Part shown: positions 18,033 through 54,298 of the stretch, in pieces
How the letters are laid out: every line of letters starts with the position of its first letter
Numbering within the stretch: position 1 is the stretch's first letter
Source: Candidatus Magasanikiibacteriota bacterium
GTDB taxonomy: Bacteria; Patescibacteriota; Patescibacteriia; Magasanikbacterales; UBA922
DNA: 64,000 nucleotides
Direction: 5' to 3'
Assembly (NCBI GenBank): GCA_049287025.1
Contig: JBAQFA010000005.1
Coordinates: 1,671 to 65,670 of the forward strand
Position numbers and translations under genes: made by a program
Notes under the pieces: model-generated
What the model saw: the letters and a program-made list of their open reading frames with translations, nothing else
Databases searched by the model: none
Told to the model about the DNA's origin: nothing

Positions 18033-18719
18033 ATGAATAATTATAAAATCATTTCTGTCGGTGGTTCAATTATAATTCCTAAAACTGGATTTGATATTAA
18101 ATTTTTGAAAAAGTTTAGAGAATTAATTTTGGCTCGCGTCAAAGCTGGTGAAAAATTTATTTTAGTTATTGGTGGGGGAGCGACATGTAGACTTTATCAA
18201 GAGGCTCTGGCAAAGACGGTCAAAACTAGCAATGAAGATTTGGATTGGTTAGGGATTTACACCACTTGGTTCAATGCCGAGTTTGTAAAATTAATGTTTA
18301 TCAATTATGCTTTTAACGAAGTCATTAAGGACCCAACTAAAAAAATCAAAACTAATAAGCCAATTATTATTGCTGGTGGTTGGAAGCCGGGTTGTTCTAC
18401 TGACAAAGATGCTGTTTTATTAGCTAAAAATTTTGGGGCTAAAGAATTAATCAATTTGTCCAATATTGAATATGTTTTTGATAAAGATCCAAATAAATAT
18501 AAAGATGCAAAAAAGATTGAGAAAATAAACTGGTCAGATTTTAGAAAAAATATTGTTGGGTATAAGTGGGTACCAGGTAAAAATGTGCCATTTGACCCTA
18601 TGGCGAGTGAGTTGGCGGAAAAAATGTGGTTAAAAGTTAGTATTTTGTGTGGAACTGATTTAGTTGAAGTTAAAAAGGCTTTAAGTGGAAAAAAGTTTAA
18701 AGGGACAATAATTGTGTAA
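18033..18719 (+). CDS. pyrH: Amino-acid-kinase family protein, archaeal-type UMP kinase-like
   Basis: IISVGGSII...FILVIGGG...AGGWKPGCSTD...NIEYVFDKDP pattern typical of archaeal/short UMP kinases. At 228 aa it lacks the bacterial GGGNIFRG loop. Confidence 0.65.
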   Translation: MNNYKIISVGGSIIIPKTGFDIKFLKKFRELILARVKAGEKFILVIGGGATCRLYQEALAKTVKTSNEDLDWLGIYTTWFNAEFVKLMFINYAFNEVIKDPTKKIKTNKPIIIAGGWKPGCSTDKDAVLLAKNFGAKELINLSNIEYVFDKDPNKYKDAKKIEKINWSDFRKNIVGYKWVPGKNVPFDPMASELAEKMWLKVSILCGTDLVEVKKALSGKKFKGTIIV

Positions 18720-18721
18720 TT

Positions 18722-18843
18722 CCGAGTGAGTGAAACGAAAGAGGAATCCTTTTTAGTATCTTTAAACATTGCAATTCAATAATGCGAATTTAGAAGTATA
18801 GGAAAGGGATCCCTCGTCGTTCCTCCTCGGGATTGTGAACGAC
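18722..18843. repeat. Palindromic miniature element (GAGGAATCC...GGGATCC family), intergenic copy
   Basis: GAGGAATCCTTTTT-(AT-rich core AAACATTG...)-GGAAAGGGATCCCTC, then GTCGTTCCTCCTCGGGATTGTGAACGAC hairpin. Same family as the copies at 35021, 39752, 48333, 49728 and 50626. Confidence 0.65.
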
Positions 18844-20214: not shown

Positions 20215-20228
20215 AAAATATAATTTTT

Positions 20229-24769: not shown

Positions 24770-24781
24770 ATTGTAAGATTT

Positions 24782-24870: not shown

Positions 24871-24962
24871 ATAATATATTATCTATCTTTTTGTTAGATA
24901 TTAAAATGTAAATACCGTTGTAAGTTTTAACAAATAAATATTTACAACTAATTTATCAAGCT

Positions 24963-28060: not shown

Positions 28061-28070
28061 GCAAAAATAC

Positions 28071-28775: not shown

Positions 28776-29127
28776 CCCCGCGAAGGCGGGGATCTTTTAT
28801 CGTAAATTCCACAAATCTTTCCATTCAGGATTATTTTTTTCAATTAATTTTATTTTCCATTCCCTATTCCATTTTTTCAAACATTTTTCTCTATGAATAG
28901 CATCGTTAATGCTTCGATATTCTTCAAAATAGACCAACTTATGAACCCAATATTTTTTTGTAAAGCCATCAATTATTCCTGTTTTATGTTCATTTGTTCT
29001 TCGATCTATGTTGTTTGTTACACCAATGTATAATACGCCATATTTTTTACTTGCTAAAATATAAACATAAAATGTTTTTTCCATACAGGCGAGTTTGTAT
29101 AAGATTCCCGCCTTCGCGGGAATGACG
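28761..29127. mobile_element. Compact mobile-looking cassette: a GIY-YIG nuclease gene flanked by 27-bp terminal inverted repeats
   Basis: Left end CGTCATCCCCGCGAAGGCGGGGATCTT (28761-28787). RC of the right end: CGTCATTCCCGCGAAGGCGGGAATCTT (29101-29127). Each terminus is itself palindromic. Inserted between glyA and the tsaE start. Confidence 0.5.
28797..29084 (-). CDS. GIY-YIG nuclease family protein (stand-alone URI domain, ~95 aa)
   Basis: FYVYILASKKYGVLYIGVTNNIDRRTNEH ... KKW: GIY...YIG core with conserved Arg and Glu. Confidence 0.85.
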   Translation of the reverse strand: MEKTFYVYILASKKYGVLYIGVTNNIDRRTNEHKTGIIDGFTKKYWVHKLVYFEEYRSINDAIHREKCLKKWNREWKIKLIEKNNPEWKDLWNLR

Positions 29128-30395: not shown

Positions 30396-30400
30396 AAAAA

Positions 30401-30440
30401 ATAGGTTATAGGTTTTAGTAAATAGGTTATAGGTTTTTTA
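30401..30440. repeat. Tandem 20-bp repeat (ataggttataggttttagta x2) between glyA and the NUDIX gene
   Basis: Two direct copies. The same TTAGGTT/ATAGGTT word family occurs at 20089, 40048 and 42901. Confidence 0.5.
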
Positions 30441-34002: not shown

Positions 34003-35637
34003 TTAAGCCAGTTTTTTAATCATGTAAGTTTGTTGTAATTTGTATCCTAATTTTCGATAATAACCTCGCACTCCCACTCCGGAAATCACAGCAATTTTTT
34101 TATATTTATTTTTTTTACTAATTTTTTCAGCTTCTTCAACTAATTTTTTACCTAAACCTTTGTGTTGACTGGCAGATTTATTTTTTGTACCCAGTTCAAG
34201 TAGTTGTCCATAAGTGTGGAGTTCTCGTATATATGCTAACGAATTATCATCAAGAAGACGTAAACGTAAAAAACCATAAACAACCTGTCTTTTTTTATCT
34301 TCGTAACTCAAAAAATATTCTGTCCCACCTGTTGTTTCATATTTATCAATAAAAAGTCTTAAGTCTTCAGTTTTAAGTCTTAAGTCTGGCTGGTGTCCAA
34401 CCTCACGACAGCGTAAGCATTGGCATTCCAAACCCCTTTTGGCCATTTCTTTTTTAAGGTTTTGTCGGAGATTGGTAATCATGTTTCCACCCATAATTTC
34501 ATTGTCAGGAATATCACGAATTAAACGAGATATTCGGCAATAGCGTGGCGTACTGGTTTTCATTTCAATTAACGCTTCAAATAATTTTTTTTCTGAATAT
34601 GGTTTGTATTTTTTTTCTTTGTACCATTGATATAGGGCAGCAGTTTTTATCACTGTGCAGGGATAAATTTTTACCATATCAGGTTTAAAGCCTGGATCAG
34701 TAAATAATGACTTATACATTTCCACATCATGCTTGGCCGTAGTACCAGGGAGATCGGGCATAAAATGTAAATCAACTTTAAAACCAGCTTGACGTAACAA
34801 AGTCATAGCATCTTTAAATTGCTGTACAGTGTGTCCACGTCTGACTAATTTTAAAATTTTATCATCTGGTGCTTGCAGACCTAGTTCAATTCTAGTACAA
34901 CCCATTTGGCGCATGTGATTGATTGTCTCTGGGGTTATACAGTCGGGGCGGGTTTCTAAAGTTAGACCGATTATCTTGTGGCGGGCGTGACGGTCATTAT
35001 AACTTTGTTCTTTTTTTAAATTCCGAAGGAGCGAAGCGACTGAGGAATCGCTTTTTAATGCATTTGAAGAGACTTTGAAAAGGGATCTCTCACTTCGTTC
35101 GAGATTATTTGCCGCCCGGAAAGATTCTAAAATAAACCAATATTGATATTTTAGAGGATAAACATTCCACGATCCGCCTTTAATAATATATTCAATTTTG
35201 TCAGTCGGGTGGCCAGAAAGTTTTAGCATTTCTATACGTCTCACCATTTGCTCATAAGGATCAAAACATAGAGCCAAGGCTCTGGCAGCCGCTGGTTCGC
35301 TGGCCAAATAGCTTTTTGGCATTCTAGCCTCAGTCGGGCAATAAACGCATTTTCCAGGGCAATTATAGGGCTTACAGAGGGAGGTGACAACGGCTACACC
35401 AGAGAGAGTGCGTATATCAGCTTTACGCATGAATCGTTCTAAGGTTTTGTCCTGCTTGACTCTTTTCATTTTTAATAAATTTTGGTAAGCTTGTAGCAGG
35501 CTACGATTAGAAATTTGGTTGATGGAGAGTTTATTACAGACTTTTCTTCTGATATCATCAAACTCAGCCCTGGTAGTGGGTTGAAAGGAAATAATTTTTA
35601 ATATTATATTTTCTAGATTTTCCATAGATAGATACAC
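34003..35637 (-). CDS. elp3: Elp3-family radical SAM / GNAT protein (tRNA uridine-34 modification-type elongator protein 3 homolog)
   Basis: Radical SAM cluster CPGKCVYCP, a central SPL-like region and a C-terminal GNAT (KGLGKKLVEEAEK...GYYRKLGY). The likely start is the ATG at 35625. Carries an in-frame palindromic element at 35021-35105. Confidence 0.85.
   Translation of the reverse strand: MYLSMENLENIILKIISFQPTTRAEFDDIRRKVCNKLSINQISNRSLLQAYQNLLKMKRVKQDKTLERFMRKADIRTLSGVAVVTSLCKPYNCPGKCVYCPTEARMPKSYLASEPAAARALALCFDPYEQMVRRIEMLKLSGHPTDKIEYIIKGGSWNVYPLKYQYWFILESFRAANNLERSERSLFKVSSNALKSDSSVASLLRNLKKEQSYNDRHARHKIIGLTLETRPDCITPETINHMRQMGCTRIELGLQAPDDKILKLVRRGHTVQQFKDAMTLLRQAGFKVDLHFMPDLPGTTAKHDVEMYKSLFTDPGFKPDMVKIYPCTVIKTAALYQWYKEKKYKPYSEKKLFEALIEMKTSTPRYCRISRLIRDIPDNEIMGGNMITNLRQNLKKEMAKRGLECQCLRCREVGHQPDLRLKTEDLRLFIDKYETTGGTEYFLSYEDKKRQVVYGFLRLRLLDDNSLAYIRELHTYGQLLELGTKNKSASQHKGLGKKLVEEAEKISKKNKYKKIAVISGVGVRGYYRKLGYKLQQTYMIKKLA
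35021..35105. repeat. Palindromic miniature element copy (GAGGAATCG...GGGATCT variant) inserted in-frame in elp3
   Basis: TTCCGAAGGAGCGAAGCGACTGAGGAATCGCTTTTT ... AAAAGGGATCTCTCACTTCGTTCGAG. Encodes ERSERSLFKVSSNALKSDSSVASLLRN in the protein. Confidence 0.55.
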
Positions 35638-35732
35638 GGATTAAACAGATCAAACGGACCTGTCTGCCGGCAGGCAGGTAAAAACGAATCCGTTCAAATT
35701 TGTTAAATCAGTTTAATCCGTGTTTCTATCTA
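35625..35732. repeat. ~108-bp composite palindrome filling the divergent intergenic region between elp3 and a methyltransferase gene
   Basis: TAGATAGATACACGGATTAAAC ... CCTGTCTGCCGGCAGGCAGG ... GTTTAATCCGTGTTTCTATCTA. The inner GC palindrome shares CCTGCCTGC/GCAGGCAGG with a palindrome at 50388-50440. Confidence 0.5.
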
Positions 35733-36482: not shown

Positions 36483-36552
36483 AATGCCAGAAAAGGTAAT
36501 TAAATTTTAAAAGTACCGTATCTTCTTATTTTGATGTTAAGTTAAAAAATTA

Positions 36553-39358: not shown

Positions 39359-39445
39359 AATGCTTAAAATGTTTGGAAATGCCAAAAATGCCGATGAGGC
39401 TTTTCAGGCCTTTCTAGCCTTTTCGGCTTTTCAGGCCTTTTATTA
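39359..39445. repeat. AGGCNTTT-type repeat array at the gene boundary
   Basis: aaatgccaaaaatgccgatgaggcttttcaggcctttctagccttttcggcttttcaggcctttt. Confidence 0.5.
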
Positions 39446-40943
39446 AAGAATCAATCATTCCTCTAAAACCATGACTCCCACAGAAAACAATTACATCGCC
39501 AGATTTAGTGTTATTGATTAAATAATTTATTAATTCAGTATCATCATCAATATATTTGGCATTATTGTGGGTCTTACTAATTACCTCGGCTAGTTTTTGT
39601 CCGTCCATGACTTCTGGTTTATTGGGATCTTGTTTAATCGCTGTTAGACGAGGAATAATGACTTCGTCAGCACTGACAAAAGCATTGTCATAGCCAGGAA
39701 TAGATTCTATTTGGCGATTACCGCCGTTTGGTTCGAAGACTGCTATGAGTTTTGAGGAAGGGGATCCTTCGACTTCATTCGTTTGACTGGCGTCAAACTC
39801 ACTTCGCTCAGGATGACGTGTATAGATATTTTTTAAGCTAGCTAAAACCGCTTCAGCTTTTTTTGGTGAGTGAGCGATATCATCAAATACAATAACATCA
39901 TTATCACATCGTTTTTCCAATCTTCTTTTTATATTTTTAAAACTGATAATGGCTTTTATAATATTGGCTGGTTCAATACCAAGCTCATGAGCAAAAGCAA
40001 AACATCCAGTCATATTGTCGGCCATGTAGTCGCCTAGATTTGAAGTAATTAGGTTATAGGTTTTAGGTTTTAGGTTATCATTTTTTGGTTTGACAACTAT
40101 ATCAAATGATAGTCCGTTTTTTGAAGTTTTTACATTGGTGTACTGATAATCATTGTCTGGTGATTTTCCGTATTTAATGATATGTGATATGTGGTATGTG
40201 ATGTGTGATACTTTTTCACTAGTCACAATCATTCCATTAGCAGGAATGTTGTTTACAAGTGTTTGAAACGCATCAACATAAGATTGTTCAGTCGGATACA
40301 CATCAGCATGATCCCAAACCACAGATGTCAAAAGTAAATGAGTGGGGGAATAGTGGGCAAATTTTGGGCCATTGTCCCAGCGCGCGCTTTTGTATTCGTC
40401 GCCTTCAATTACGGAGTAATTGCCACGTGAACCCGAAGGGTTTTTACGTGGCGGATTGTCTCCCAAACTCGCAGACGGTATCCCATTTAGACTAATACCA
40501 CCAAACATATAAGTCGGATCAAAATTATTTTGTTTCAAAATCCAAGTAAGTAGTGATGAACTGGTAGTCTTACCATAAGTCCCAGCGCAAACAATTGAAT
40601 TCTCTTTGACAAAAAATTCTTTGATCACTTCAGGATAAGATTTATAATTTAATTTATTTTCTTGTACATAGAGCCATTCAGGATTATTGGAACTGGCGAC
40701 ATTGCCAACTACGACTAGGTTTCCATCTTTTCCTCCTTCGCTAAAGCTACGGAGGACACGGTCGGGATGCCAACCAGTATAATAATCAACGCCACTTTCT
40801 TTGAGATAAGTAGAAATGGGTGGATATATTCCCACATCACTACCAGTCACTTCATAACCCGCTTTTTTCAATGCTAAAGCCAGAGCCGACATGGCGACTC
40901 CACAGATACCGATGAAGTGGATTTTTATTTTGTCATGTAACAT
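39414..40943 (-). CDS. Mur ligase family protein, Mpl/MurC-like
   Basis: IHFIGICGVAMSALA and GSDVGIYPPISTYL (Mpl-like), with P-loop GTYGKTTSSSLL. Carries in-frame repeat insertions at 39752-39818, 40048-40079 and 40190-40230. Confidence 0.8.
   Translation of the reverse strand: MLHDKIKIHFIGICGVAMSALALALKKAGYEVTGSDVGIYPPISTYLKESGVDYYTGWHPDRVLRSFSEGGKDGNLVVVGNVASSNNPEWLYVQENKLNYKSYPEVIKEFFVKENSIVCAGTYGKTTSSSLLTWILKQNNFDPTYMFGGISLNGIPSASLGDNPPRKNPSGSRGNYSVIEGDEYKSARWDNGPKFAHYSPTHLLLTSVVWDHADVYPTEQSYVDAFQTLVNNIPANGMIVTSEKVSHITYHISHIIKYGKSPDNDYQYTNVKTSKNGLSFDIVVKPKNDNLKPKTYNLITSNLGDYMADNMTGCFAFAHELGIEPANIIKAIISFKNIKRRLEKRCDNDVIVFDDIAHSPKKAEAVLASLKNIYTRHPERSEFDASQTNEVEGSPSSKLIAVFEPNGGNRQIESIPGYDNAFVSADEVIIPRLTAIKQDPNKPEVMDGQKLAEVISKTHNNAKYIDDDTELINYLINNTKSGDVIVFCGSHGFRGMIDSLIKGLKSRKG
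39752..39818. repeat. Half-copy of the palindromic miniature element inserted in-frame in the Mur ligase gene
   Basis: GAGGAAGGGGATCCTTCGACTTCATTCGTTTGACTGGCGTCAAACTCACTTCGCTCAGGATGACG. Encodes ERSEFDASQTNEVEGSPSS. Confidence 0.5.
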
Positions 40944-46015: not shown

Positions 46016-46885
46016 ATGGTTAAGGTTGCTTGGTTTGGTATACACACTGGTGAAGAACCGCCTTTAATCCCTGCTGGGGGGATTTTTTTTACTGGGTGTA
46101 ATTTGCGGTGTGTGTTTTGTCAGAATTATCAAATTTCTCAAGAAAATTTGGGAAAATTTTACAGTATAGAAGAATTAGCCAACATAATGCTTGATTTGCA
46201 AACCCAGGGTGCGGTGAATATTGATTTAGTGACGCCGACGATTTGGTGGAAGCAAATTAAACCGGCCATAATTTTGGCGCGTGAAAGGGGACTAACTCTA
46301 TCAATCGTTTGGAATTCAAATGGCTTTGATAGCTTAGAAATTTTACAGGAGATGAAAGGTTTGGTAGATATTTATTTACCAGATTTTAAATACAGTGATG
46401 ATGAAATTGCTTTTAAATATTCTGGTATAAAAAATTATGTTGAGACTACTAAATTAGCAATCAAAGAAATGTTGGATCAAGTTAATTATTTACAAATTGA
46501 AAATGGTATTGCGACTAGGCCCGCCCGCCACGCAAGCCAGCCCCGCCTATCACAGCCTGGCACTGGCGAGCAGGTTGCTGGCGTTGCGGGCAGGGGATTA
46601 ATTGTTCGTCATATGGTTTTGCCCAATAATTTGGCTAATAGTTTTGGTGTATTGCAAATGTTATCGGAGATCGATAATAAAATTCATGTTAGTCTCATGA
46701 ACCAATATTTTCCTATGCATCATGCGAATGAATATCCAGAAATAAATAGAATTGTGAGCGATGTTGAATTTAATCAAGTTTATGATTATTTGCAAGAACT
46801 TGGATTTACAAATGGCTGGGTACAGGGTGAAAAGAGTCAACAATTTTTAATTCCAGATTTTAGAAAAGAAGAGCCATTTAATTGA
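46016..46885 (+). CDS. Radical SAM protein (PflA-like / AmmeMemoRadiSam-type activating enzyme)
   Basis: GCNLRCVFCQNYQIS CxxxCxxC cluster in the PflA-like context. Carries a GC-rich in-frame insertion at 46516-46600. Confidence 0.7.
   Translation: MVKVAWFGIHTGEEPPLIPAGGIFFTGCNLRCVFCQNYQISQENLGKFYSIEELANIMLDLQTQGAVNIDLVTPTIWWKQIKPAIILARERGLTLSIVWNSNGFDSLEILQEMKGLVDIYLPDFKYSDDEIAFKYSGIKNYVETTKLAIKEMLDQVNYLQIENGIATRPARHASQPRLSQPGTGEQVAGVAGRGLIVRHMVLPNNLANSFGVLQMLSEIDNKIHVSLMNQYFPMHHANEYPEINRIVSDVEFNQVYDYLQELGFTNGWVQGEKSQQFLIPDFRKEEPFN
46516..46600. repeat. GC-rich inverted-repeat insertion, in-frame in the radical SAM gene
   Basis: GGCCCGCCCGCCACGCAAGCC ... GGCGTTGCGGGCAGGGG arms (GCCCGCCACGC / GCGTTGCGGGC). 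Encodes RPARHASQPRLSQPGTGEQVAGVAGRG. ~70% GC. Confidence 0.5.
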
Positions 46886-46892
46886 ATTTTTT

Positions 46893-48155
46893 ATGGAACA
46901 ATACGATGTCATAATTATTGGCGCGGGATTTTCTGGTCTTACTTTAGCTCATCATCTACCGCATGATTTGCGGGTTTTGGTTTTGGATAGAAAACAAGCC
47001 TTGAATAGTGTGATGGAAACTACTGGCTTAATCACCCAAGCGACAAAGGATCTAATTAGCGAATTTGTAGATATAGAAAATTATTTGCCCAATCATATTG
47101 ATACGATTGGTGTGGTGTCGCCAGATTATGATAAATATTTTTTTTCTCACACCACAGATCCTTGGATTTATTCGACTGACACACCAGAATTGGTAAAACA
47201 TTTAGCCGATGCAGTACCAAATAATGTAGACATAAAAATTGGTCAGACTCTAGTTGATTATAAGATTGATAATAGTTCTGAATATCCAGTTCTGGTAGAG
47301 TATGCAAATAATGGAACAAAAAGTTTATCCCAGACAAAATTTTTAGTGGGGGCAGATGGGGGTAATTCCACAGTGGCAAAATTAAATGATAAATTATCAA
47401 AAAATACTAAATTTTTAATTGGTTTTGAAAAAGTGTTTTTTGGCGATATAACTTTTGGTCCGAAGCCTAATAGTACAGTTTATCATTTTTGGTTTGGGGA
47501 ATTTTCACTTGGTTATGGCGGGTGGTTGTCGCCAACTGTGATTGATAATAAATCAGCTTTTCGGCTTGGTCTAGCTAAATTGGAAAAAGACAAGGCTAAT
47601 TTAAAAAAGCTGGATGATTTTATAAATATTTTACAGGAAAAAAAGATTATAAAAATTGATTCAGAAAATATTCAGCCAGTAATTTCTTTTGGTAATAAAA
47701 TTCCGATTGGCGGAGTTTTGCCAAATTTAACAGCTGACAGAGTAATGTTAATAGGGGATGCGGGTGGTTTTTGTGGAGCGTTTGCGGCCGATGGTATCAA
47801 GGGGGCAGTCTTGTCAGGAAAAACTAGCGCCAAATTAATCACAAAATATTTGCAAGGGGATAAAGATTGTTTAAAATCTTATATTTCAGAAATGCAAAAA
47901 AATAATAAAATTATTTATTATTACAGAAAACAATTACTTTATAGATGGTTATGGAATCTAATGAAAACTAATAATAGTTTTATGAATTTGTATCGATTGA
48001 TTGAAAGACAAAAAGATGATTTTCTTAATCAATTTTGTGATAGCAAGGACAAAAGAAAAAGTTTGTTTCGCGTGCTTTTAAAATTTAAAAACATACCTTT
48101 GTTATTTAGGTATGCTTTTTCATTGTTGTTTGATTTGTTTAGACCAAGGCCTTAA
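46893..48155 (+). CDS. FAD-dependent oxidoreductase (geranylgeranyl reductase-like family)
   Basis: YDVIIIGAGFSGLTLA dinucleotide-binding motif, GADG and GDAGG motifs, 420 aa. Confidence 0.8.
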   Translation: MEQYDVIIIGAGFSGLTLAHHLPHDLRVLVLDRKQALNSVMETTGLITQATKDLISEFVDIENYLPNHIDTIGVVSPDYDKYFFSHTTDPWIYSTDTPELVKHLADAVPNNVDIKIGQTLVDYKIDNSSEYPVLVEYANNGTKSLSQTKFLVGADGGNSTVAKLNDKLSKNTKFLIGFEKVFFGDITFGPKPNSTVYHFWFGEFSLGYGGWLSPTVIDNKSAFRLGLAKLEKDKANLKKLDDFINILQEKKIIKIDSENIQPVISFGNKIPIGGVLPNLTADRVMLIGDAGGFCGAFAADGIKGAVLSGKTSAKLITKYLQGDKDCLKSYISEMQKNNKIIYYYRKQLLYRWLWNLMKTNNSFMNLYRLIERQKDDFLNQFCDSKDKRKSLFRVLLKFKNIPLLFRYAFSLLFDLFRPRP

Positions 48156-49005
48156 GTCTTCTTATAAAAATTTCTTTAGCTTTCTTCGCATATTCCTGCA
48201 TTTGTGGTTCTGACCAGTTTTGTTCTAATAGATTTTTATTTGGATCAGTAATAGTGATTGTTTCTTGTCTCACGCCGTGGTTATAAAGACCATCAGTAGG
48301 ATATTGAAATGAATGGGTGTATTCAATCACAATTCCGAACCCCGAGGGTGAGGAATCCCTTTTTTGTGTATTAAAAGTTGTATTACTATTTACATTGTTT
48401 GAAGAGTTGGAAAGGGATCCACCCTTACGGGTATCTTCGACCTCGTTGCGACTCGGGATTACCGAAGAAACCAATAATACATGATTATAATCTTGTTTTG
48501 GACCAGCACCCATCATAACAATTAGATCTCCAGGCTGGATATCTTTTAGATTTATTTCTTTAGAATTTATATTATTATTAAAAGTGGAGACACCAGTATT
48601 TTCGGCTGATCTAAATTGAGAAATTAATTTGCGAATGGGATTTTTTATCCATGGCCGGTGAATATATTTTTTTAGTCCGCCTAAATTTCTGGCTTTCAAT
48701 TCTGTATCTAATACATGATAAATTAGACCAGAACAATCAATCCCTAGATTGTGTTCAATTAAAAATTTTTTTATTTGTTCGGCATTTAATTCGGCTAGTT
48801 TTATTTTTTCGCGTAAAGAAAAGATCGTGGCTTCTTCCGCAATATCTTCTGGGCTACCTTTGCCAATCAAGACGCGCAAAGCTCCACGAATATTTTTTCT
48901 CCGATTATTAAAATAGGGAGTAGTTATGTTTTTTTCTCCTATTTTGAGATTAAGGTATTGATCAATAACTTTTTGTGCTTGTGAGGATAATTGTTCCATT
49001 GTCAT
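48139..49005 (-). CDS. NlpC/P60-like (papain-fold C40 peptidase/amidase-like) cytoplasmic protein
   Basis: LGIDCSGLIYHVL resembles the catalytic Cys motif DCSGLV of C40 peptidases, with downstream His. No signal peptide. Carries the palindromic element at 48333-48468 in-frame. Confidence 0.5.
   Translation of the reverse strand: MTMEQLSSQAQKVIDQYLNLKIGEKNITTPYFNNRRKNIRGALRVLIGKGSPEDIAEEATIFSLREKIKLAELNAEQIKKFLIEHNLGIDCSGLIYHVLDTELKARNLGGLKKYIHRPWIKNPIRKLISQFRSAENTGVSTFNNNINSKEINLKDIQPGDLIVMMGAGPKQDYNHVLLVSSVIPSRNEVEDTRKGGSLSNSSNNVNSNTTFNTQKRDSSPSGFGIVIEYTHSFQYPTDGLYNHGVRQETITITDPNKNLLEQNWSEPQMQEYAKKAKEIFIRRLKALV
48333..48468. repeat. Palindromic miniature element copy inserted in-frame in the NlpC/P60-like gene
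   Basis: TTCCGAACCCCGAGGGTGAGGAATCCCTTTTTT-(AT-rich core)-GGAAAGGGATCCACCCTTACGGGTATCTTCGACCTCGTTGCGACTCGGGATTACCGAAG. Encodes GGSLSNSSNNVNSNTTFNTQKRDSSPSGFG. Confidence 0.65.
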
Positions 49006-49009
49006 ATTG

Positions 49010-50962
49010 TTATTTGTTTGATGTTTTATTCAAAATTTTTTCTGTCAGACCTTTTGGTAATAATGTTATGTTTGGCAATTCTTTTAGATCTACCCAGACT
49101 AGCTTGTAAGAATTATTAGTAGTGCTTCTCTCTCTTTCTTCGTCACCTAGCTTTGGTTCACCAGAAATATTCTCCGCAAAATAATAATATTCGTCACGGC
49201 CATTAATATTAAAACAAAGTGGTATTTGTTCAGGAATAGTAAAATCAAGATCAGTTTCTTCTTTGCCTTCACGTTTGGCTGTGGCTAATATATTTTCATC
49301 AAAATCTTCTTTGGTTCCACCAGGTGGAGTGAAAAAATGCTGGGAAAATTTTTGTCTTTCTATTAATAAAATTTTGCCGTCTTTAATAGGTAAAATAGCA
49401 CCTCGGGGCAAGTCCCAACCCACACCTTTTTGGGTGACAGTAATAAAGTCAATTATTTTTAAACCATTGAGACTTAATTTATTATGCGCTTCCATAATAG
49501 GATAAAGAGTTTGCGTGCGCATCAGGTCAGCATTTGGTTTGGTATTATTGTATTTTATAATATTGAAATCAGGTCGTTTGTTGTATTTTGGTTCGTGAAG
49601 TGAAGGAATTTCTTTGGTAACTCGTTGAATAATTTGCGCGCCATCTTGGATTTTGATTAATGTTTGATTTTCCAAATTTATATCTAATAACGCCATGAGG
49701 TGGGATTCGAATGTGGTTATTTGGTTTGTCATCCCGAATCCCCCGACGAAGGGGGTGAGGGATCCCTTGTCTTTGGATTTAAACATTGTATTATTACTAA
49801 TTCCATTGTTTAATGTTTGGGAAAGGGATCCCCTCCTCGGAGGATCTTCGACCTCGCCCTGTGTCGGGCTCGGGATGACAAGTGATTGAAGTTGTGATTC
49901 GTAAGTCGTTGATGCTGGTTGTCTGGCATTAATTTCAATTAAATATAGTTTGCCATTTTTTCCCGCCTTCGCTGAAGCTTCGGCGGACAAGTCATCAACC
50001 ACAACATCAACTCCAAACAAACCTTTCCAACCTTGTGATCTTAATTTTTCGCCAATATCATTTACAATTTTGTTGTATTGTTTTATTTGATCTTCATTTA
50101 AATATTTATTAGCAAATGACCAATCATTGCCAATGGTAGTAAATTTATTATCAGTAAAAGGTTTGAGTCCAGTAATTTGATAGCTAATATTACCAACTAA
50201 AATTTTATTTTTTGTGACGACATTGTTGCTAGTAAACATTGGTCCAGAAATATATTCCGTGATTCTAACTGGGCGATCGGGAAATTTTTCTTTAATCTCA
50301 TCCAGCTGACTCTCTGATTCAATCAAAATAGTGCCAAGGCCAGTATGAGCGCGGTTGAATTGGATAATAAAAGGCTTACAAAGCTCACGAGGCTTGCTAC
50401 CTGCCTGCGCAGGCAGGGGCTCACAAGGCCAAACGATATTTTTACATAAATCAACTCTGTGTTTAGGTAAATATTTTTGTAATTCCCCAAGCCATTCTAG
50501 TCCAGAGATTTTTTCTTCTATTTTGTTTGACAGTTCGGCTGGTGGGTTGAGTAGTTTCCAATTATTTTCCTGACAGATTTTTTCTATTTGAGTGGTGGGT
50601 TTGAAGACTACCACGGTAAGTTCATTCCGATCCGCCGATGAGGTGGAGAGGAATCTTTCGGAGTTATTTGTTGTTGTGGTATGATTGTCTTTTGTAATTT
50701 GTTTGTAAAAGGCTTCGAAAGATCCCTCGTCAGTCAGTCGTCTGACTTCCTCGGGATGAACCAACAATTCTAACAATTCCCAAGTATCCAGCTGTTCATT
50801 ACTTTCAATCAAAAGGACATTATCATATCCTTCAGCTACAGACTTGGCAAAAGGCGTAGAATTTGAGATAATATGATAACCTGGGGTATTTAAATTCAGC
50901 CCTAAAGCCCGCTCAATATCGCGGGTGACGTAAATGATTGGGTTTTGGGTTAGATCTATCAT
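49010..50962 (-). CDS. ATP-grasp (RimK-like) ligase fused to a C-terminal NUDIX hydrolase domain
   Basis: ATP-grasp blocks PFIIQFNRAHTGLGTILI and GLFGVDVVVDD...GKLYLIEINARQPAS. C-terminal Nudix box GGTKEDFDENILATAKREGKEETDL. The likely start is MIDLTQNP at 50962, since the track ORF to 51049 overlaps the divergent gene. Carries three in-frame palindromic insertions. Confidence 0.7.
   Translation of the reverse strand: MIDLTQNPIIYVTRDIERALGLNLNTPGYHIISNSTPFAKSVAEGYDNVLLIESNEQLDTWELLELLVHPEEVRRLTDEGSFEAFYKQITKDNHTTTTNNSERFLSTSSADRNELTVVVFKPTTQIEKICQENNWKLLNPPAELSNKIEEKISGLEWLGELQKYLPKHRVDLCKNIVWPCEPLPAQAGSKPRELCKPFIIQFNRAHTGLGTILIESESQLDEIKEKFPDRPVRITEYISGPMFTSNNVVTKNKILVGNISYQITGLKPFTDNKFTTIGNDWSFANKYLNEDQIKQYNKIVNDIGEKLRSQGWKGLFGVDVVVDDLSAEASAKAGKNGKLYLIEINARQPASTTYESQLQSLVIPSPTQGEVEDPPRRGSLSQTLNNGISNNTMFKSKDKGSLTPFVGGFGMTNQITTFESHLMALLDINLENQTLIKIQDGAQIIQRVTKEIPSLHEPKYNKRPDFNIIKYNNTKPNADLMRTQTLYPIMEAHNKLSLNGLKIIDFITVTQKGVGWDLPRGAILPIKDGKILLIERQKFSQHFFTPPGGTKEDFDENILATAKREGKEETDLDFTIPEQIPLCFNINGRDEYYYFAENISGEPKLGDEERERSTTNNSYKLVWVDLKELPNITLLPKGLTEKILNKTSNK
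49728..49879. repeat. Palindromic miniature element, best-preserved copy with perfect 10-bp outer inverted repeats, in-frame in the ATP-grasp-NUDIX gene
   Basis: GTCATCCCGAATCCCCCGACGAAGGGGGTGAGGGATCCC-(AT-rich core)-GGGAAAGGGATCCCCTCCTCGGAGGATCTTCGACCTCGCCCTGTGTCGGGCTCGGGATGAC. Encodes EVEDPPRRGSLSQTLNNGISNNTMFKSKDKGSLTPFVGGFG. Confidence 0.7.
50388..50440. repeat. Short GC palindrome (CCTGCCTGC|GCAGGCAGG) inserted in-frame in the ATP-grasp-NUDIX gene
   Basis: GCTCACGAGGCTTGCTACCTGCCTGCGCAGGCAGGGGCTCACAAGGCC. Encodes LPAQAGSKPREL. The core is shared with the 35658-35680 palindrome. Confidence 0.5.
50626..50758. repeat. Palindromic miniature element copy inserted in-frame near the 5' end of the ATP-grasp-NUDIX gene
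   Basis: TCCGATCCGCCGATGAGGTGGAGAGGAATCTTTCGG-(AT-rich core)-CGAAAGATCCCTCGTCAGTCAGTCGTCTGACTTCCTCGGGATGAA. Confidence 0.6.
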
Positions 50963-50994
50963 AGTGAGGGTAATTATACTTAAAAAAATAGTTT

Positions 50995-53250
50995 TTGACA
51001 AGCAATATGGACAGTATGGATTTGAAAAAACACGATAGAGTTGATTCATATCAAATTGAGTTAGAATTAGCTTTTTCTGTTTGGTATCAGGGAGTAAAAA
51101 CTGGACGTAAAGATTTTGGAGTAGGCTGGCTAAAGAAAAATGGATTTAATAATCTTGCTGTCTGGTGTGAAGAAAATAGTGAACAGTTTGTTGAATGGAA
51201 AGTCTTAAGAGAGCTAAAAGAGGCTTTTTTGGTTTGGCATTCTTTGCCAGAAGCAGGCCGTGGTAATTTTAATGCGACTTGGTTGCAACAAAATGGATTT
51301 TCTCGTGTAGATAAAGGGCTGCGCAAGTTAGATGGTGTTGAAGTTGTCCAAAAAAGTGATTCAGCGGAATTAAGAAAAGCTTACACTGTCGACAAGGTTG
51401 ACTGGACAGAGGAATCAGCCGTAAAAAAAATGGATGAAATGTATGAAGTTTTTTTGAAGGAAAAAGATAATAAATTTGATAAAAAAGGAAAACCAATACG
51501 CTTCAATAGATATTGGCTTAAATCAAAAGGTTTACCATCATTGGTAAGGTGGGCAAATACGCAGCCGGGTGGTTTGGAAGTATTGAACACCAAGTGTAGA
51601 AACAAAGAAGTTGCTAATTTATTTGAAAGAAGTAGGACGGAGTGGAATGAGACTTTGGCAGTTGCTGATTTAGAAGTTGCTTATAAAGAATGGCTGGACG
51701 AGCCGGCGGATACGCGAGGCAATTTTAATCAAAAAAGGATACAAAGAAAACATTCAGGACTGACAAGTTGGGTCTGGGATAATGGCGGAATTGATAAGTA
51801 TGTTGCTTTATCAAAAAATGATTCTTTAAGGGCTGCATTTTCAAAAGATAGAATATTTTGGGATGATAAAAGAGTTTTAGCTGAATTAGATAAAGCCTTT
51901 GAAAAATGGAAGTCGGTTGTAGAGGTGGATGGTAGAACTGGTAAACAAAGGAAATTTAGTGCTTTTTGGATTCGAGATAATTATAATCAAGGTTTAAGCA
52001 GATGGATTAGTATGCACAGTGGATTGAATCATTGTGTTGCTTTAAGTACTAATCAAGAATTAAGAAAATATTTAAATTTAGATAACCAAGTTGTCACAAC
52101 TGTGACTGTTGAAGGCTTGGTAGATAAACCAGAAGAGGTTGAAGAAAAAACCAATGAACCAGGAGAAATTCATGTTGGAGTTTTTCCTAGTGAAATGATT
52201 GATCTTTCGGGTATTGGTTCCAATTTACTTCCTCAAATAAGGGTTGCGAGTCTTCAGGAAAGGGAAGATAGAGGATCAACAGATGTTGATTTGTCACAAA
52301 TGACAGCTGATCCAAATCCGTTACAGAAATTACGTTTTGATATGGCTACAGCCAGACAAAGTGGTGTCTGGGATGATGAATTAATAAAAAGATATATAGA
52401 ATTGCATTCTTATTTGCCAGATTTTATTTTTCACGGTCTTAGCGTAGAACATATTGTGGAATTAGCCACAGCTGGCAAGATAAAAACCCCAAAGGCTGTT
52501 TTGTCCGTCGGTGGAGGGGCTTATGGGGAATTAATAGCTTGGCAAAGAAAATTAAAAGCAGAGGCGCCAATGGTTTTTAATTTGGACAGTTCTGCATTAA
52601 TGTTGGAAATGGCTAAGCCTGTTTTATCCGAGAAATATAGTATTCAGCAAAACGATTTTAATGGCGTGGTAGGTGATATGAGAAATTTTAAGGGTGATTA
52701 TTTGAGTAATTTTAAACAGGGTGATTTTGATTTAATAGAATGTTCAGCGTTAGACAATTTAACTGAAGCACAATTGCCAAAATTTGTTGAAGAAATAGTT
52801 GATGTTTTACAAAATGGACAAATGGTACAGTTGATTGCCAGAAAGCCAATACCAAATGCTGTTTGGCACATTTTGGAAACTATGGGTTGTGTGATACTAA
52901 CTCCACCAAATGCCAAATTAGATGCAGATCTTAGCGGTGTAGTAGGTGGGGATGTAAAAAAGAGAATTAAACAAAAGTTGCGAGATGGGGGCGGGTTTTA
53001 TTTATTGGCGCAAAAATTTGAAAAAACAATTAATCCAGATGATAATAAGAAAAGGTTTTTAGATCAATTATCGCAAGCACAAGATATGGAGACCGGAGAT
53101 CTTGGTTTGTTATTATTAGATTTAGCAAAATTGTATCCAAATTATGGCGATATTCCAGAGGAAGAATTGGCAAGAGTTGGATTTCGGCGAGAAATTATTA
53201 AAGTGAATAAAAAAGGTGCAAGTAACATAGTACGAATTGTCAAAGTTTAA
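50995..53250 (+). CDS. Large hypothetical protein with five or more ~50-aa N-terminal tandem repeats and a C-terminal class I methyltransferase-like region
   Basis: Repeats of the form hxxAhxxW...G[RK]xxF...xWL..NGF...L..W. The C-terminal region has VLSVGGGAYG (motif I-like), NLDSS and DLIECSALDNL. 751 aa. Confidence 0.55.
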   Translation: MTSNMDSMDLKKHDRVDSYQIELELAFSVWYQGVKTGRKDFGVGWLKKNGFNNLAVWCEENSEQFVEWKVLRELKEAFLVWHSLPEAGRGNFNATWLQQNGFSRVDKGLRKLDGVEVVQKSDSAELRKAYTVDKVDWTEESAVKKMDEMYEVFLKEKDNKFDKKGKPIRFNRYWLKSKGLPSLVRWANTQPGGLEVLNTKCRNKEVANLFERSRTEWNETLAVADLEVAYKEWLDEPADTRGNFNQKRIQRKHSGLTSWVWDNGGIDKYVALSKNDSLRAAFSKDRIFWDDKRVLAELDKAFEKWKSVVEVDGRTGKQRKFSAFWIRDNYNQGLSRWISMHSGLNHCVALSTNQELRKYLNLDNQVVTTVTVEGLVDKPEEVEEKTNEPGEIHVGVFPSEMIDLSGIGSNLLPQIRVASLQEREDRGSTDVDLSQMTADPNPLQKLRFDMATARQSGVWDDELIKRYIELHSYLPDFIFHGLSVEHIVELATAGKIKTPKAVLSVGGGAYGELIAWQRKLKAEAPMVFNLDSSALMLEMAKPVLSEKYSIQQNDFNGVVGDMRNFKGDYLSNFKQGDFDLIECSALDNLTEAQLPKFVEEIVDVLQNGQMVQLIARKPIPNAVWHILETMGCVILTPPNAKLDADLSGVVGGDVKKRIKQKLRDGGGFYLLAQKFEKTINPDDNKKRFLDQLSQAQDMETGDLGLLLLDLAKLYPNYGDIPEEELARVGFRREIIKVNKKGASNIVRIVKV

Positions 53251-53255
53251 TATTT

Positions 53256-54200
53256 ATGAGTGAATTATATCAACAACTAAAAGAATTTGGCCATGTCAAA
53301 CTAAATGAACCAATGTCCAAGCACACAACCTTCAAAATTGGTGGTAAGGCTAATTTTTTTATTACAATTGAAAATACAGATAATTTGGGTAAACTTTTAA
53401 CCTTTGTGAATGAGCAGGGTTTATCTTATTTTATTTTAGGTGGAGGATCAAATCTGCTGTGGAATGATGACCAATTTGAAGGAGTGGTAATAAAAGTGGG
53501 TAATAAAAAATTAACTGTGACTGGAAATATGATTGAAGCCGACGCTGGTGTTCTCTTGTCCCAAGTAGTCAATTTGGCAGCGCAAAATAGTTTAACTGGT
53601 TTTGAATGGGCCGTGGGGATCCCTGGAACAATTGGTGGAGCAGTGCGAGGCAATGCTGGAGCGATGGGCGTGGATATTTCGGCTGATAAATGTCTAGCAA
53701 AAGTTCAAGTGTGGCAAAATGGTGAAGTAGTGGAATATAATAGAAGTGAATGCAATTTTGTTTATCGAGGGAGCATGTTTAAAGATGATCCTAATATATT
53801 GGTTTTGCGGGCATATTTTAGGCTTGATGTGGGAGATCAAGCAGAGATAATGAAATCAATGCAAGGTTATTTGGCTCAACGCACTGGACGGTATCCAAAA
53901 TTTCCTTCAGCTGGTAGTTTTTTTCAAAATGTTCCAATTGATAAATGGAAAAAAGATTTAAAAGATTTACCAGCCATTTTTGTGGAGCGCAAAAAAATTC
54001 CCGTTGGTTGGCTCGTGGAACAATTAGAATTAAAAGGTTTGACTGTAGGTGGCGCCAAAGTGTCTGATGAACATGGTAATTTTATTATTAATTTTGATAA
54101 TGCATTACAGTCTGATGTCTTGACTTTAGTTGAATTAGTAAAAGAAAAAGTGTATAATAAATTTGGAATAGAATTGGAGAGTGAAGTGGAAATAGTGTAA
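53256..54200 (+). CDS. murB: UDP-N-acetylenolpyruvoylglucosamine reductase
   Basis: FKIGG.A, ILGGGSNLLW FAD-binding motif, GIPGTIGGAVRGNAGAMG and a C-terminal MurB domain, 314 aa. Confidence 0.9.
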   Translation: MSELYQQLKEFGHVKLNEPMSKHTTFKIGGKANFFITIENTDNLGKLLTFVNEQGLSYFILGGGSNLLWNDDQFEGVVIKVGNKKLTVTGNMIEADAGVLLSQVVNLAAQNSLTGFEWAVGIPGTIGGAVRGNAGAMGVDISADKCLAKVQVWQNGEVVEYNRSECNFVYRGSMFKDDPNILVLRAYFRLDVGDQAEIMKSMQGYLAQRTGRYPKFPSAGSFFQNVPIDKWKKDLKDLPAIFVERKKIPVGWLVEQLELKGLTVGGAKVSDEHGNFIINFDNALQSDVLTLVELVKEKVYNKFGIELESEVEIV

Positions 54201-54298
54201 AGGCTTGAAAAGCTAGAAAAGCTTCAAAGGCTTGAAAGGCATTGATTTGCATTTTAAGCCTTTTAGGCATTTTAAGCCTTTTAGGCATTTTAAAAATT
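54201..54298. repeat. AGGCNTTT-type repeat array upstream of hpf
   Basis: aaggcttgaaaagctagaaaagcttcaaaggcttgaaaggcattgatttgcattttaagccttttaggcattttaagccttttaggcatttt. Confidence 0.55.

What the first reader, a model, noticed from the sequence alone, without database searches (positions are those of the whole stretch)
48333..50758. Family of GC-rich palindromic miniature elements inserted IN-FRAME into protein-coding genes (RPE-like)
At least six copies of a 65-150-bp element share conserved arms GAGG(A/G)ATCC(C)TTT ... AAAGGGATCC(C)CTC around an AT-rich core (AAACATTGTATTA...). They also share outer inverted repeats ATCCCGAG / CTCGGGAT(G). The copies are at 48333-48468 (NlpC/P60-like gene); 49728-49879 and 50626-50758 (ATP-grasp-NUDIX gene); 35021-35105 (elp3); 39752-39818 (Mur ligase, half copy); and 18722-18843 (intergenic). 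The best copy, at 49728, has perfect 10-bp termini GTCATCCCGA / TCGGGATGAC. Every genic copy keeps the reading frame. Each adds a low-complexity S/N/T/G-rich peptide to the host protein, for example GSLSNSSNNVNSNTTFNTQKRDSSPSGFG and RRGSLSQTLNNGISNNTMFKSKDKGSLTPFVGGFG. The elements are ~55-60% GC in a ~34% GC genome. This mirrors Rickettsia palindromic elements (RPEs), which also insert in-frame into ORFs. I do not know such elements to be described in this kind of genome.
Basis: seen in the sequence. Interest (0 to 1): 0.8.

Follow-up and report, generated by a model that had tools for sequence, protein, structure and literature searches.

The report
Hairpin-repeat mini-elements inside CPR bacterial genes
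The repeats are real: they are small paired-hairpin DNA elements, related to the repeats that go with the recently described Ssn single-strand nucleases (which include some Rickettsia palindromic elements), and in this candidate-phyla-radiation (Patescibacteria) bacterium they survive inside genes as in-frame inserts in floppy protein loops.

Summary
The window (a Candidatus Magasanikiibacteriota MAG, about 34% GC) carries four full elements, one short element and one single arm. Five of the six lie in frame inside genes. Each of those five is an insertion relative to homologues.

Each arm reads: tag (T/C)GTC, ATYCC, GA, a variable inner mini-hairpin, GA, GGRAT, then C. That is the layout of GTC-tagged REP / Ssn-related motifs (SRM), the ssDNA hairpins recognised by the GIY-YIG nuclease Ssn (Chenal 2025; Di Nocera 2013). 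Di Nocera assigns Rickettsia RPE-4 and RPE-6 to this superfamily.

The window also encodes an Ssn homologue (28797-29084) flanked by canonical SRMs. In metagenome contigs, two ssn genes are flanked by exactly the window's arm class. One has an ssn-less doublet beside it with a near-identical arm.

So the elements are best read as ssn-less miniature doublets. They persist in genes only as stop-free, in-frame inserts in disordered loops. The same two loops of the ATP-grasp-NUDIX protein have been hit repeatedly by different hairpin classes in different lineages.

The kind is known. The phylum, the interrupted-stem arm variant and the autonomous/miniature pairing appear undescribed in the literature searched. 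How the elements move remains inferred.

The parts
48328..48463 (.). Copy A. Full doublet in frame in the 288-aa NlpC/P60-like ORF (48139-49005, minus strand). Left arm 48332-48356, AT-rich core, right arm 48417-48459. Tags are decayed (CACA / GGTA). Encodes SSVIPSRNEVEDTRKGGSLSNSSNNVNSNTTFNTQKRDSSPSGFGIV.
   Evidence: [quoted passage not shown] The window copy has an extra 21-nt nested module, and the other arm's inner hairpin has been swapped.
49728..49879 (.). Copy B. Best-preserved doublet, in frame in the ATP-grasp-NUDIX ORF (49010-51049, minus strand). Arms 49731-49763 and 49828-49876. Both arms carry an intact TGTC tag. Encodes VIPSPTQGEVEDPPRRGSLSQTLNNGISNNTMFKSKDKGSLTPFVGGFGMT.
   Evidence: (z -5.1 / -6.2). 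It is absent from all members of its own clade in the homologue tree. In the AlphaFold model residues 374-410 have pLDDT below 50.
50620..50761 (.). Copy C. Doublet in frame in the same ATP-grasp-NUDIX ORF, in the linker loop. Arms 50624-50654 and 50722-50757. Tags are GTTC. It is read in a different frame at one end (...RFLSTSSADRNE).
   Evidence: (z -5.0). The same loop is occupied by different elements in P0002, P0008, P0010, P0011, P0028, P0033 and others. pLDDT is 55-59.
18715..18837 (.). Copy D. Doublet immediately after, and overlapping, the TAA stop of the amino-acid-kinase gene (18033-18719). Arms 18719-18747 and 18809-18833. No open frame.
   Evidence: (z -4.9).
35016..35109 (.). Copy E. 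Short doublet in frame in elp3 (34003-35637, minus strand). Arms 35020-35048 and 35085-35105. Encodes LFKVSSNALKSDSSVASLLRN.
   Evidence: It is a 21-aa insertion relative to PDB 6iaz Elp3. Its left arm is identical to an arm in the L081 ATP-grasp gene of another genome.
39758..39818 (-). Copy F. Single arm with a CGTC tag (CGTC|ATCCT GA ... GA AGGAT|C), in frame in the Mur ligase gene (39414-40943, minus strand). Encodes about RHPERSEFDASQTNEVEGSPSS.
   Evidence: About 21 extra residues relative to MurC 9ir5.
28797..29084 (-). Ssn-family GIY-YIG nuclease gene (95 aa, single domain), lying between tsaE and glyA.
   Evidence: Pfam GIY-YIG E=6e-14. It is 53-72% identical to homologues in many phyla, most of them flanked by tag-outward GTC hairpins. 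The family is described in PMC11893778.
28770..28794 (+). Canonical SRM / CGTC-1 REP flanking ssn: CGTC|ATCCCCGC GAAG GCGGGGAT|C.
   Evidence: It matches the published SRM search sequence. DNA fold z -4.2.
29103..29127 (-). Canonical SRM flanking ssn on the other side, tag outward: CGTC|ATTCCCGC GAAG GCGGGAAT|C.
   Evidence: (I7). DNA fold z -4.5. By my own comparison it agrees with the Neisseria NTS consensus CGTCATTCCCGCGMAVGCGGGAATCYRG at 26 of 28 positions.

Best explanation
The elements are ssn-less doublets of GTC-tagged hairpin repeats. Two Ssn-recognition-type arms face each other, tags outward. They are joined through conserved CCCTTT ... AAAGGG boundaries and a 30-60-nt AT-rich core. 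They are the miniature (REPIN/MITE-like) counterparts of arm-ssn-arm units, in which the same arms enclose a 95-aa GIY-YIG single-strand nuclease gene.

Each arm reads: (T/C)GTC tag, 5-bp outer stem ATYCC/GGRAT, a GA...GA pair (probably tandem sheared G.A pairs), a variable inner mini-hairpin, and an invariant C after the palindrome.

Shown by others: Ssn binds such hairpins only as ssDNA, needs that 3' C, and cuts a few nucleotides 5' of the GTC tag.

Shown here:
- The window arms carry these determinants.
- The arm class flanks ssn genes elsewhere.
- The copies are insertions.
- Copies exchange modules within a genome.
- Genic copies lie in disordered loops.

Inferred: the doublets are copied at the DNA level in trans by a cognate Ssn acting on hairpins extruded in single-stranded DNA, with host replication or repair doing the joining. 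Ssn is a hydrolytic nuclease. From general knowledge of GIY-YIG enzymes, not tested here, no covalent intermediate is expected. In a 91%-coding genome most landings are in genes. Only in-frame, stop-free copies in permissive surface loops survive selection, and these then decay. Most genic arms have lost the GTC tag needed for cleavage.
For: Arm anatomy, and 11 of 11 arms with C after the palindrome.

Across all DNA held, 187 arms of the class ATYCC-GA-N5-42-GA-GGRAT were found. The GTC tag was not part of any search pattern, yet 168 arms have it.

The window's Ssn gene has canonical SRMs on both sides. Of 76 homologous loci from many phyla with both flanks available, 42 have a tag-outward GTC hairpin upstream, 50 downstream and 34 on both sides. 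The background expectation is 0.009 per flank. This agrees with PMC11893778.

ssn genes in L119 and L096 are flanked by this exact arm class, with the same CCCTT(T/A) ... (T/A)AAGGG inner boundaries. In L096 an ssn-less doublet sits just upstream of the ssn unit, with an almost identical right arm.

Empty sites and recurrent, phylogenetically scattered occupancy are shown. The identical 29-nt arm occurs in different genes of different genomes. The 21-nt module shared by A and B is absent from the orthologous L081-A copy.

In the AlphaFold model (pLDDT 88.4, pTM 0.87), B is the only stretch with pLDDT below 50. The other dips fall at C and at two other GC-rich hairpin inserts.

Against: - The arms do not match the published SRM search sequence.
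- The arms lack the uninterrupted 8-9-bp stem and 4-5-nt loop of CGTC REPs.
- As isolated DNA hairpins they are not significantly more stable than shuffles (z -0.03 to -2.25), against -4.2 and -4.5 for the canonical SRMs.
- The only ssn gene in the window is flanked by canonical SRMs, not by this arm class, so the cognate nuclease is not shown for this genome.
- Only 3 of 11 window arms keep GTC.
- No transposition activity has been shown for any Ssn. The published role is restriction of transforming ssDNA.
- Neighbouring canonical SRMs in other genomes pair in all orientations: 17 tag-outward, 18 tag-inward, 13 direct.
Confidence: 0.65

Rival explanations
1. The doublets belong to the hairpin-repeat family, but Ssn does not move them. 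They spread and homogenise by host recombination, replication slippage or gene conversion between hairpins. Ssn merely uses them as recognition sites, for example to restrict incoming single-stranded DNA as shown in Neisseria.
For: The only demonstrated Ssn function is ssDNA cleavage that lowers transformation. GIY-YIG hydrolases are not expected to perform strand transfer (general knowledge). Clear signs of exchange between copies are seen: the inner-hairpin swap and the shared 21-nt module. Canonical SRMs pair in all orientations.
Against: The arm-ssn-arm units share inner boundaries with the ssn-less doublets, and a near-identical arm lies next door in L096. That is the classic autonomous/non-autonomous signature. 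New sites, such as B in this lineage only, need some insertion process. Gene conversion alone cannot create a copy at a site that has no homology.
Confidence: 0.2
2. They are ordinary terminal-inverted-repeat MITEs moved by a DDE-type IS transposase encoded elsewhere in the genome. The resemblance to Ssn motifs is coincidental.
For: Size (90-150 bp), terminal inverted repeats and an AT-rich core resemble MITEs.
Against: There is no consistent target-site duplication at A-D (flanks). The termini are tagged hairpins with the determinants of Ssn sites. ssn, not a transposase, is found between such arms.
Confidence: 0.07
3. They act at the RNA level, as mRNA hairpins for stability, attenuation or processing, or as excised intervening sequences. 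Their coding capacity is incidental.
For: Whole elements fold strongly as RNA too (z about -5). Di Nocera argues that many REPs are transcribed and act as RNA.
Against: There is no Rfam match even at E<=1. Genic copies keep the host frame open, whereas the intergenic copy D has 0 of 6 open frames. That is what is expected if they are translated, not removed. The conserved parts are the DNA-recognition features (tag, 3' C). Ssn does not touch RNA.
Confidence: 0.05
4. The segments are ancient, selected protein linkers. The nucleotide similarity reflects codon and amino-acid bias.
For: A and B encode similar S/N/G-rich peptides.
Against: Nucleotide-level palindromy and identical arms occur in unrelated genes and genomes. 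Distribution on the protein tree is patchy. C uses another frame. An intergenic copy exists. pLDDT is low.
Confidence: 0.02

Closest known systems
Ssn nucleases and Ssn-related motifs (SRM / NTS, which overlap the dRS3 repeat). Chenal et al. 2025, PMC11893778.
   Same: Same GTC tag, AT-initiated palindrome and obligatory 3' C. Same motif-gene-motif arrangement with tags outward. The window encodes a family member whose flanking motifs are almost the Neisseria NTS.
   Different: The window's composite arms have a 5-bp outer stem, GA...GA and a variable nested hairpin, and they fail the published SRM search sequence. They occur as fixed doublets with a conserved CCCTTT ... AAAGGG frame and an AT-rich core. 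Five of six are inside genes, against 2% of NTS in N. meningitidis. The host is Patescibacteria, which that paper does not mention.
CGTC-tagged REPs (Di Nocera et al. 2013, PMC3733652). These include Rickettsia RPE-4 and RPE-6 and Neisseria dRS3.
   Same: Unpaired (C/T)GTC tag, stems starting with AT, a short C-rich tail, frequent dimers, and documented in-frame intragenic copies encoding 20-30 aa or more.
   Different: Defined with 8-9-bp uninterrupted stems and 4-5-nt loops. Said to lack a dedicated enzyme. Found mostly in alpha-proteobacteria. No CPR genomes were examined.
Rickettsia palindromic elements (RPE-1; Ogata et al. 2000, as cited in PMC3733652).
   Same: Palindromic elements of about 100-150 bp inserted in frame into essential genes and translated into surface peptides. 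A Rickettsia endosymbiont locus here has a 116-nt ssn-less SRM doublet beside its ssn gene.
   Different: Sequence similarity to the RPE-1 consensus was not tested here. Different phylum and different arm sequence.
REPIN-RAYT systems (Bertels and Rainey 2011).
   Same: Doublets of inverted hairpin repeats serve as the replicating unit. A usually single-copy gene is flanked by the same repeats.
   Different: REPINs carry GTAG tags and a HUH/Y1 tyrosine transposase that makes covalent intermediates. Here the tags are GTC and the associated enzyme is a GIY-YIG hydrolase. REPINs are extragenic.
Neisseria intergenic mosaic elements (NIMEs: RS units flanked by dRS3). Recalled from memory, not checked here.
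   Same: Units of 50-150 bp bounded by inverted dRS3/NTS hairpins.
   Different: Intergenic arrays, not single in-frame inserts.

Membership tests
SRM / CGTC-tagged REP superfamily | Unpaired 5' tag (C/T)GTC directly before the palindrome | tested here: met
   Class level: 168 of 187 arms have GTC, and the tag was not part of any search pattern. In the window only 3 of 11 arms keep GTC (both arms of B, and F); 2 have TTC and 6 are decayed.
SRM / CGTC-tagged REP superfamily | Palindrome begins with AT, and a C follows it immediately (critical for Ssn binding) | tested here: met
   11 of 11 window arms start with ATYC and end with GRAT followed by C. 184 of 187 arms in all DNA held have the C.
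SRM / CGTC-tagged REP superfamily | Uninterrupted 8-9-bp stem with a 4-5-nt loop, and a match to the published SRM search sequence HGTCWYN(0-2)YYVSBRHN(0-5)WNVSBRGN(0-2)RNCYNB | tested here: not met
   The regex hits only the canonical SRM at 28770-28797. The arms have a 5-bp stem, then GA, a variable insert and GA.
SRM / CGTC-tagged REP superfamily | The arm folds as a stable hairpin in single-stranded DNA | tested here: inconclusive
   The predicted MFE shows the outer stem plus inner hairpin in several arms, but z is only -0.03 to -2.25. The energy model gives no credit to sheared G.A pairs or GNA mini-hairpins. 27% of distinct inner segments beat 95% of shuffles.
SRM / CGTC-tagged REP superfamily | Inverted pairs of the motif flank an ssn (cd10448-type GIY-YIG) gene | tested here: met
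   For the arm class: L119 and L096. In the window itself the ssn gene is flanked by canonical SRMs, not by this class.
SRM / CGTC-tagged REP superfamily | Specific binding and cleavage by the cognate Ssn as ssDNA | not testable with these tools
   Needs biochemistry.
Ssn nuclease family (window ORF 28797-29084) | Single-domain GIY-YIG protein of about 94 aa, flanked on both sides by SRMs | tested here: met
   95 aa. Pfam GIY-YIG covers residues 5-78. SRMs lie on both sides.
Rickettsia palindromic elements (RPE) | Palindromic element of about 100-150 bp inserted in frame in ORFs and absent from orthologues | tested here: met
Rickettsia palindromic elements (RPE) | Sequence similarity to an RPE consensus; Rickettsiales host | not tested
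   No RPE consensus was available. The host is Patescibacteria. The link to RPE-4 and RPE-6 comes only through Di Nocera's CGTC assignment.
REPIN-RAYT | GTAG-tagged REP doublets and a flanked RAYT (HUH/Y1) gene | tested here: not met
   Tags are GTC. The flanked gene is GIY-YIG.
Classical TIR MITE | Target-site duplication flanking the terminal inverted repeats | tested here: not met
   No direct repeat flanks A, B, C or D (flanks shown).

The most novel reading that the evidence does not exclude
Arm-ssn-arm units are true mobile elements of a new mechanistic class: a GIY-YIG, ssDNA-hairpin-directed 'cut and let the host paste' transposon. The in-gene doublets are their MITEs. Recurrent hits in the same protein loops would then reflect target preference as well as selection. 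In natural-competence-dependent CPR cells, the copies kept inside core genes might double as Ssn marks that police recombination with incoming DNA.
Probability: 0.3. Interest if true: 0.8.

Novelty: new variant of a known kind. Interest (0 to 1): 0.5.

Why it matters
First, it extends the Ssn/SRM (CGTC-REP) system to Patescibacteria. It also shows an interrupted-stem motif class that the published search sequence misses, so SRM censuses are probably undercounts.

Second, it supplies side-by-side autonomous (arm-ssn-arm) and miniature (arm-core-arm) forms, plus lineage-specific gains. This bears directly on the open question raised by Chenal et al. of whether NTS-ssnA-NTS units are, or were, mobile.

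Third, it gives a DNA-level explanation for the odd recurrent peptides (VIPS..., ...GMT, ...DSSVASLLRN, VIARSEATKQS and similar) that interrupt proteins of CPR genomes. This matters for annotation, alignment and structure prediction.

Fourth, it links the 25-year-old puzzle of in-frame Rickettsia palindromic elements to a candidate enzyme.

Tried and rejected
- Published SRM regex on the window: only the canonical ssn flank matches; the composite arms do not.
- Rfam at gathering threshold on the whole window, and at E<=1 on 48200-50900: nothing.
- Viral-contig scan for a full-length unit, GTCATYCCGAG-N320-350-CTCGGRATGAC: 0 hits. The doublet pattern in viral contigs gave 1 hit, not followed up.
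- Exhaustive phmmer of the 51-aa peptide of B against 1.84 billion representatives: 0 hits at E<=0.001. The query is too short and low-complexity, so there is no protein-level census.
- DNA folding of single arms: not significant.
- Test whether tag-outward is the only pairing of canonical SRMs near ssn genes: it is not (17 tag-outward, 18 tag-inward, 13 direct).
- Search for target-site duplications: none.
- Search for a second ssn gene in the window by tblastn: none.
- The metagenome doublets are mostly not inside long ORFs in low-GC contigs: roughly 3 of 36, counted by eye from the table. High genic occupancy is therefore not a property of the whole family. High-GC hits in that scan cannot be judged by open frames, and some may be chance matches.
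- Literature searches found no link between RPE or REP elements and CPR, and no report of ssn-less miniature elements.


Full report
**1. What is in the sequence**

The window is about 34% GC. It comes from a Candidatus Magasanikiibacteriota (Patescibacteria/CPR) MAG: the ATP-grasp-NUDIX protein is 100% identical to an NCBI MAG protein.

All six reported copies exist. With exact arm coordinates they are:

| Copy | Coordinates | Location | Form |
|---|---|---|---|
| A | 48328-48463 | 288-aa NlpC/P60-like ORF | full doublet |
| B | 49728-49879 | 679-aa ATP-grasp-NUDIX ORF | full doublet |
| C | 50620-50761 | same ATP-grasp-NUDIX ORF | full doublet |
| D | 18715-18837 | starts at the stop codon of an amino-acid-kinase gene | full doublet |
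| E | 35016-35109 | elp3 | short doublet |
| F | 39758-39818 | Mur ligase | single arm |

The pattern GAGGRATCYYTT-N30-60-AAAGGGATC occurs three times, against none in 100 shuffles. B, C and D fold as long imperfect hairpins with z about -5. Whole elements are 40-51% GC, not the 55-60% stated; by eye the G+C is concentrated in the arms.

**2. Anatomy**

Read tag-first, every arm has the same plan:
- a tag, then ATYCC, GA, a variable G+C-rich insert of 7-37 nt that is often itself a hairpin, GA, GGRAT, then C;
- usually followed by CCTTT.

The two arms of a doublet face each other with tags outward. The interior is CCCTTT, an AT-rich core, then AAAGGG.

All 11 arms have the C after the palindrome. 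The tag is TGTC in both arms of B, CGTC in F and GTTC in both arms of C. It is decayed in A, D and E.

The cores of A, B and D are alignable, at 78% over 65 nt for A against B.

**3. They are insertions, and they are in frame**

Sixteen, and then 92, homologues of the ATP-grasp-NUDIX protein were aligned.
- Site B is normally an 8-12-residue loop. Site C is normally a 14-16-residue loop.
- The nearest relatives (P0002 at 82% and P0003 at 76% aligned identity) lack B.
- On a neighbour-joining tree, B is filled only in the window protein within its clade. Elsewhere it is filled sporadically, next to empty sister sequences.
- The fillings belong to different hairpin classes: VIPS...GMT, the canonical VIPAKAGI...SGMT class in P0030, and the VIARSE...RFARNDK class in P0049 and P0088. 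Site C behaves the same way.

These are therefore repeated independent hits in two permissive loops.

Copy A is shared with the closest relative (L081, same site). A more distant orthologue (L083) has a plain loop there. L082 has a different GC-rich palindrome at that site.

E is a 21-residue insertion relative to solved Elp3. F is about 21 extra residues relative to MurC 9ir5.

An AlphaFold model of the 650-aa protein is confident (pLDDT 88.4, pTM 0.87). Insert B (residues 374-410) is the only stretch below 50. The other dips fall at insert C (55-59) and at two further small GC-rich hairpin inserts.

Frame counts fit selection after insertion. A and B have 2 of 6 frames open and C has 1 of 6. 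The intergenic copy D has none.

**4. What family**

The window holds a 95-aa single-domain GIY-YIG ORF (28797-29084). It is flanked by CGTC|ATCCCCGC GAAG GCGGGGAT|C and its inverse, tags outward.

These are CGTC-1 REPs as defined by Di Nocera et al. 2013: a tag, an 8-bp stem starting with AT, a 4-nt loop and a short tail. That paper assigns Rickettsia RPE-4 and RPE-6 and Neisseria dRS3 to this group. It says the group lacks a dedicated enzyme.

Chenal et al. 2025 have since shown the following for the flanked gene family, Ssn:
- It binds exactly this hairpin (NTS/SRM).
- It needs the C after the palindrome.
- It cuts a few nucleotides upstream of the GTC tag.

I recovered 80 loci encoding homologues 53-72% identical, from Patescibacteria, Ignavibacteria, Bacteroidota, Acidobacteriota, Omnitrophota and alpha- and gamma-proteobacteria including Rickettsiales. 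Of the 76 with both flanks available, 42 have a tag-outward GTC hairpin upstream, 50 downstream and 34 on both sides. The background expectation is 0.009 per flank.

So the nuclease gene and its canonical motifs in the window are a known system.

**5. The link between the in-gene elements and that system**

The composite arms share the tag, the AT-initiated outer stem and the 3' C. Their stem, however, is interrupted. They fail the published SRM search sequence, and as isolated hairpins they are not significantly stable.

Three results tie them to Ssn all the same.
- In all DNA held, 187 arms of the class ATYCC-GA-N-GA-GGRAT were found. The tag was never part of a search pattern, yet 168 carry GTC (156 of them TGTC). 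184 have the 3' C.
- Some ssn genes in other phyla are flanked by motifs built the same way, for example GTCATCCTGAGCGCGCGTTTTGTGCGCGCGAAGGATCCA in L072 and L074.
Five of the 81 loci held from the two doublet scans (L084-L164) contain an ssn gene.

Two of those ssn loci show the arrangement directly.
- In L119 and L096 the gene sits exactly between arms of this class, with the same inner boundaries: CGTC|ATTCCGAGCGATCCGCCGTAGGCGGAGAGTCGAGGAAT|CCCTTT ... ssn ... AAAGGG|ATTCC...TCGGAAT|GACA.
- In L096 an ssn-less doublet lies just upstream of the ssn unit, and its right arm is almost identical to the unit's right arm.

This is the usual signature of an autonomous element and its miniature derivative. 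A Rickettsia endosymbiont locus likewise has a 116-nt ssn-less SRM doublet beside its ssn gene.

**6. Dynamics**
- The 29-nt arm ATTCCGAAGGAGCGAAGCGACTGAGGAAT of copy E (elp3) is identical to an arm in the ATP-grasp gene of L081. It is nearly identical to arms in L082 and L083.
- Orthologous copies A in the window and in L081 differ by a swapped inner hairpin in one arm. They also differ by a 21-nt nested module (GTCGAAGAT plus a mini-hairpin) that the window's A shares with its B. This points to exchange between copies within a genome.
- B is the only lineage-specific copy and the only one with intact tags on both arms. It is probably the youngest. The tag-less copies are probably inert.

**7. 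Mechanism**

*Shown by others:* Ssn binds such hairpins only as ssDNA and cuts 5' of the tag.

*Shown here:* the shared determinants, the arm-ssn-arm units, the insertion status, the hot spots, the exchange between copies and the disordered-loop location.

*Inferred:* trans-mobilisation of the doublets by a cognate Ssn acting on hairpins extruded in single-stranded DNA, with host functions doing the joining. Selection then filters for in-frame, stop-free copies in tolerant loops.

With 91% of the window coding, five of six copies in genes is about what unbiased landing would give. What is unusual is the tolerance. NTS repeats are 2% intragenic in N. meningitidis. Only about 3 of 36 low-GC metagenome doublets lie inside long ORFs (my count from the table).

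The main rival is that Ssn only reads these repeats, as in restriction of transforming DNA, and that recombination spreads them. The cognate nuclease for this arm class is not in the window.

**8. Novelty**

Already published:
- GTC/CGTC-tagged REPs
- their intragenic in-frame dimers
- RPEs
- the Ssn-SRM association

Not found in the literature searched:
- any report of these elements in CPR/Patescibacteria
- the interrupted-stem (GA, nested hairpin) arm class
- the fixed doublet frame with an AT-rich core
- the recurrent loop hot spots
- the pairing of ssn-containing and ssn-less forms

I rate it a new variant of a known kind, of moderate interest.

Noticed in passing
window 50379-50438, 49966-49994, 46499-46602, 20876-20938, 40430-40460, 40732-40780, 7340-7398, 35645-35686: Other short GC-rich palindromic islands of different sequence classes. 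Examples are CCTGCCTGCGCAGGCAGG, encoding PLPAQAG, and cttcgctgaagcttcggcgg, encoding SAEASAKAG. Several lie in frame inside genes. Two of them coincide with low-pLDDT loops of the ATP-grasp-NUDIX model. Similar classes fill the same loops in homologues.
   Followed up: partly
window 8096-8420: G+C-rich intergenic stretch of about 325 nt with a predicted structured fold (MFE -108 kcal/mol, z -3.3). No Rfam family matches and ARAGORN finds no tmRNA or tRNA. Possibly an unrecognised structured RNA of a CPR genome.
   Followed up: partly
window 28067-28316: GC-rich region of 250 nt between two genes, with no ORF of 90 aa or more and no convincing Rfam match.
   Followed up: partly
window 1916-1969, 15394-15429, 39389-39442, 54239-54292; also 36455-36496 and 54190-54240: Short arrays with 9-nt periodicity (AGCCTTTTA / GGCATTTTA and their complement). 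From the ORF table several appear to lie at or near ORF ends (families D1, D3 and I1).
   Followed up: no
window 20127-20222 and 24781-24876: A 96-nt direct repeat, 85% identical. Each copy contains an inverted repeat (AATCTGCTGT...ACAGCAGATT) and lies just upstream of a gene (D7).
   Followed up: no
window 20089-20121, 30400-30438, 40041-40094, 42902-42934: Intergenic runs of TAGGTT(A/T)TAGGTTTTAG-type short repeats (D2 and D5).
   Followed up: no
window 18717-18719: The TAA stop of the amino-acid-kinase gene lies in the position of the element's tag (GTAATTCCGA against the consensus GTCATTCCGA). Copy D may therefore have supplied or replaced the gene's end, as Di Nocera describes for REP termini.
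   Followed up: no
window 48432-48452 and 49843-49863: A 21-nt nested module (GTCGAAGAT plus a mini-hairpin, encoding EVED...) sits inside one arm of both A and B. It is absent from the orthologous A copy in L081. It may be a smaller hairpin inserted into an arm.
   Followed up: partly
L084 2072-2139 (IMG/VR contig IMGVR_UViG_3300045988_174965, 176 kb): One doublet of the same frame on a contig classed as viral, 51% GC, inside a 200-codon open frame.
   Followed up: no
L001-L080: The Ssn homologues are unusually conserved across very distant phyla: 53-72% identity from Patescibacteria to Rickettsiales, Acidobacteriota and Flavobacteriia. This suggests horizontal spread or strong constraint.
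   Followed up: no
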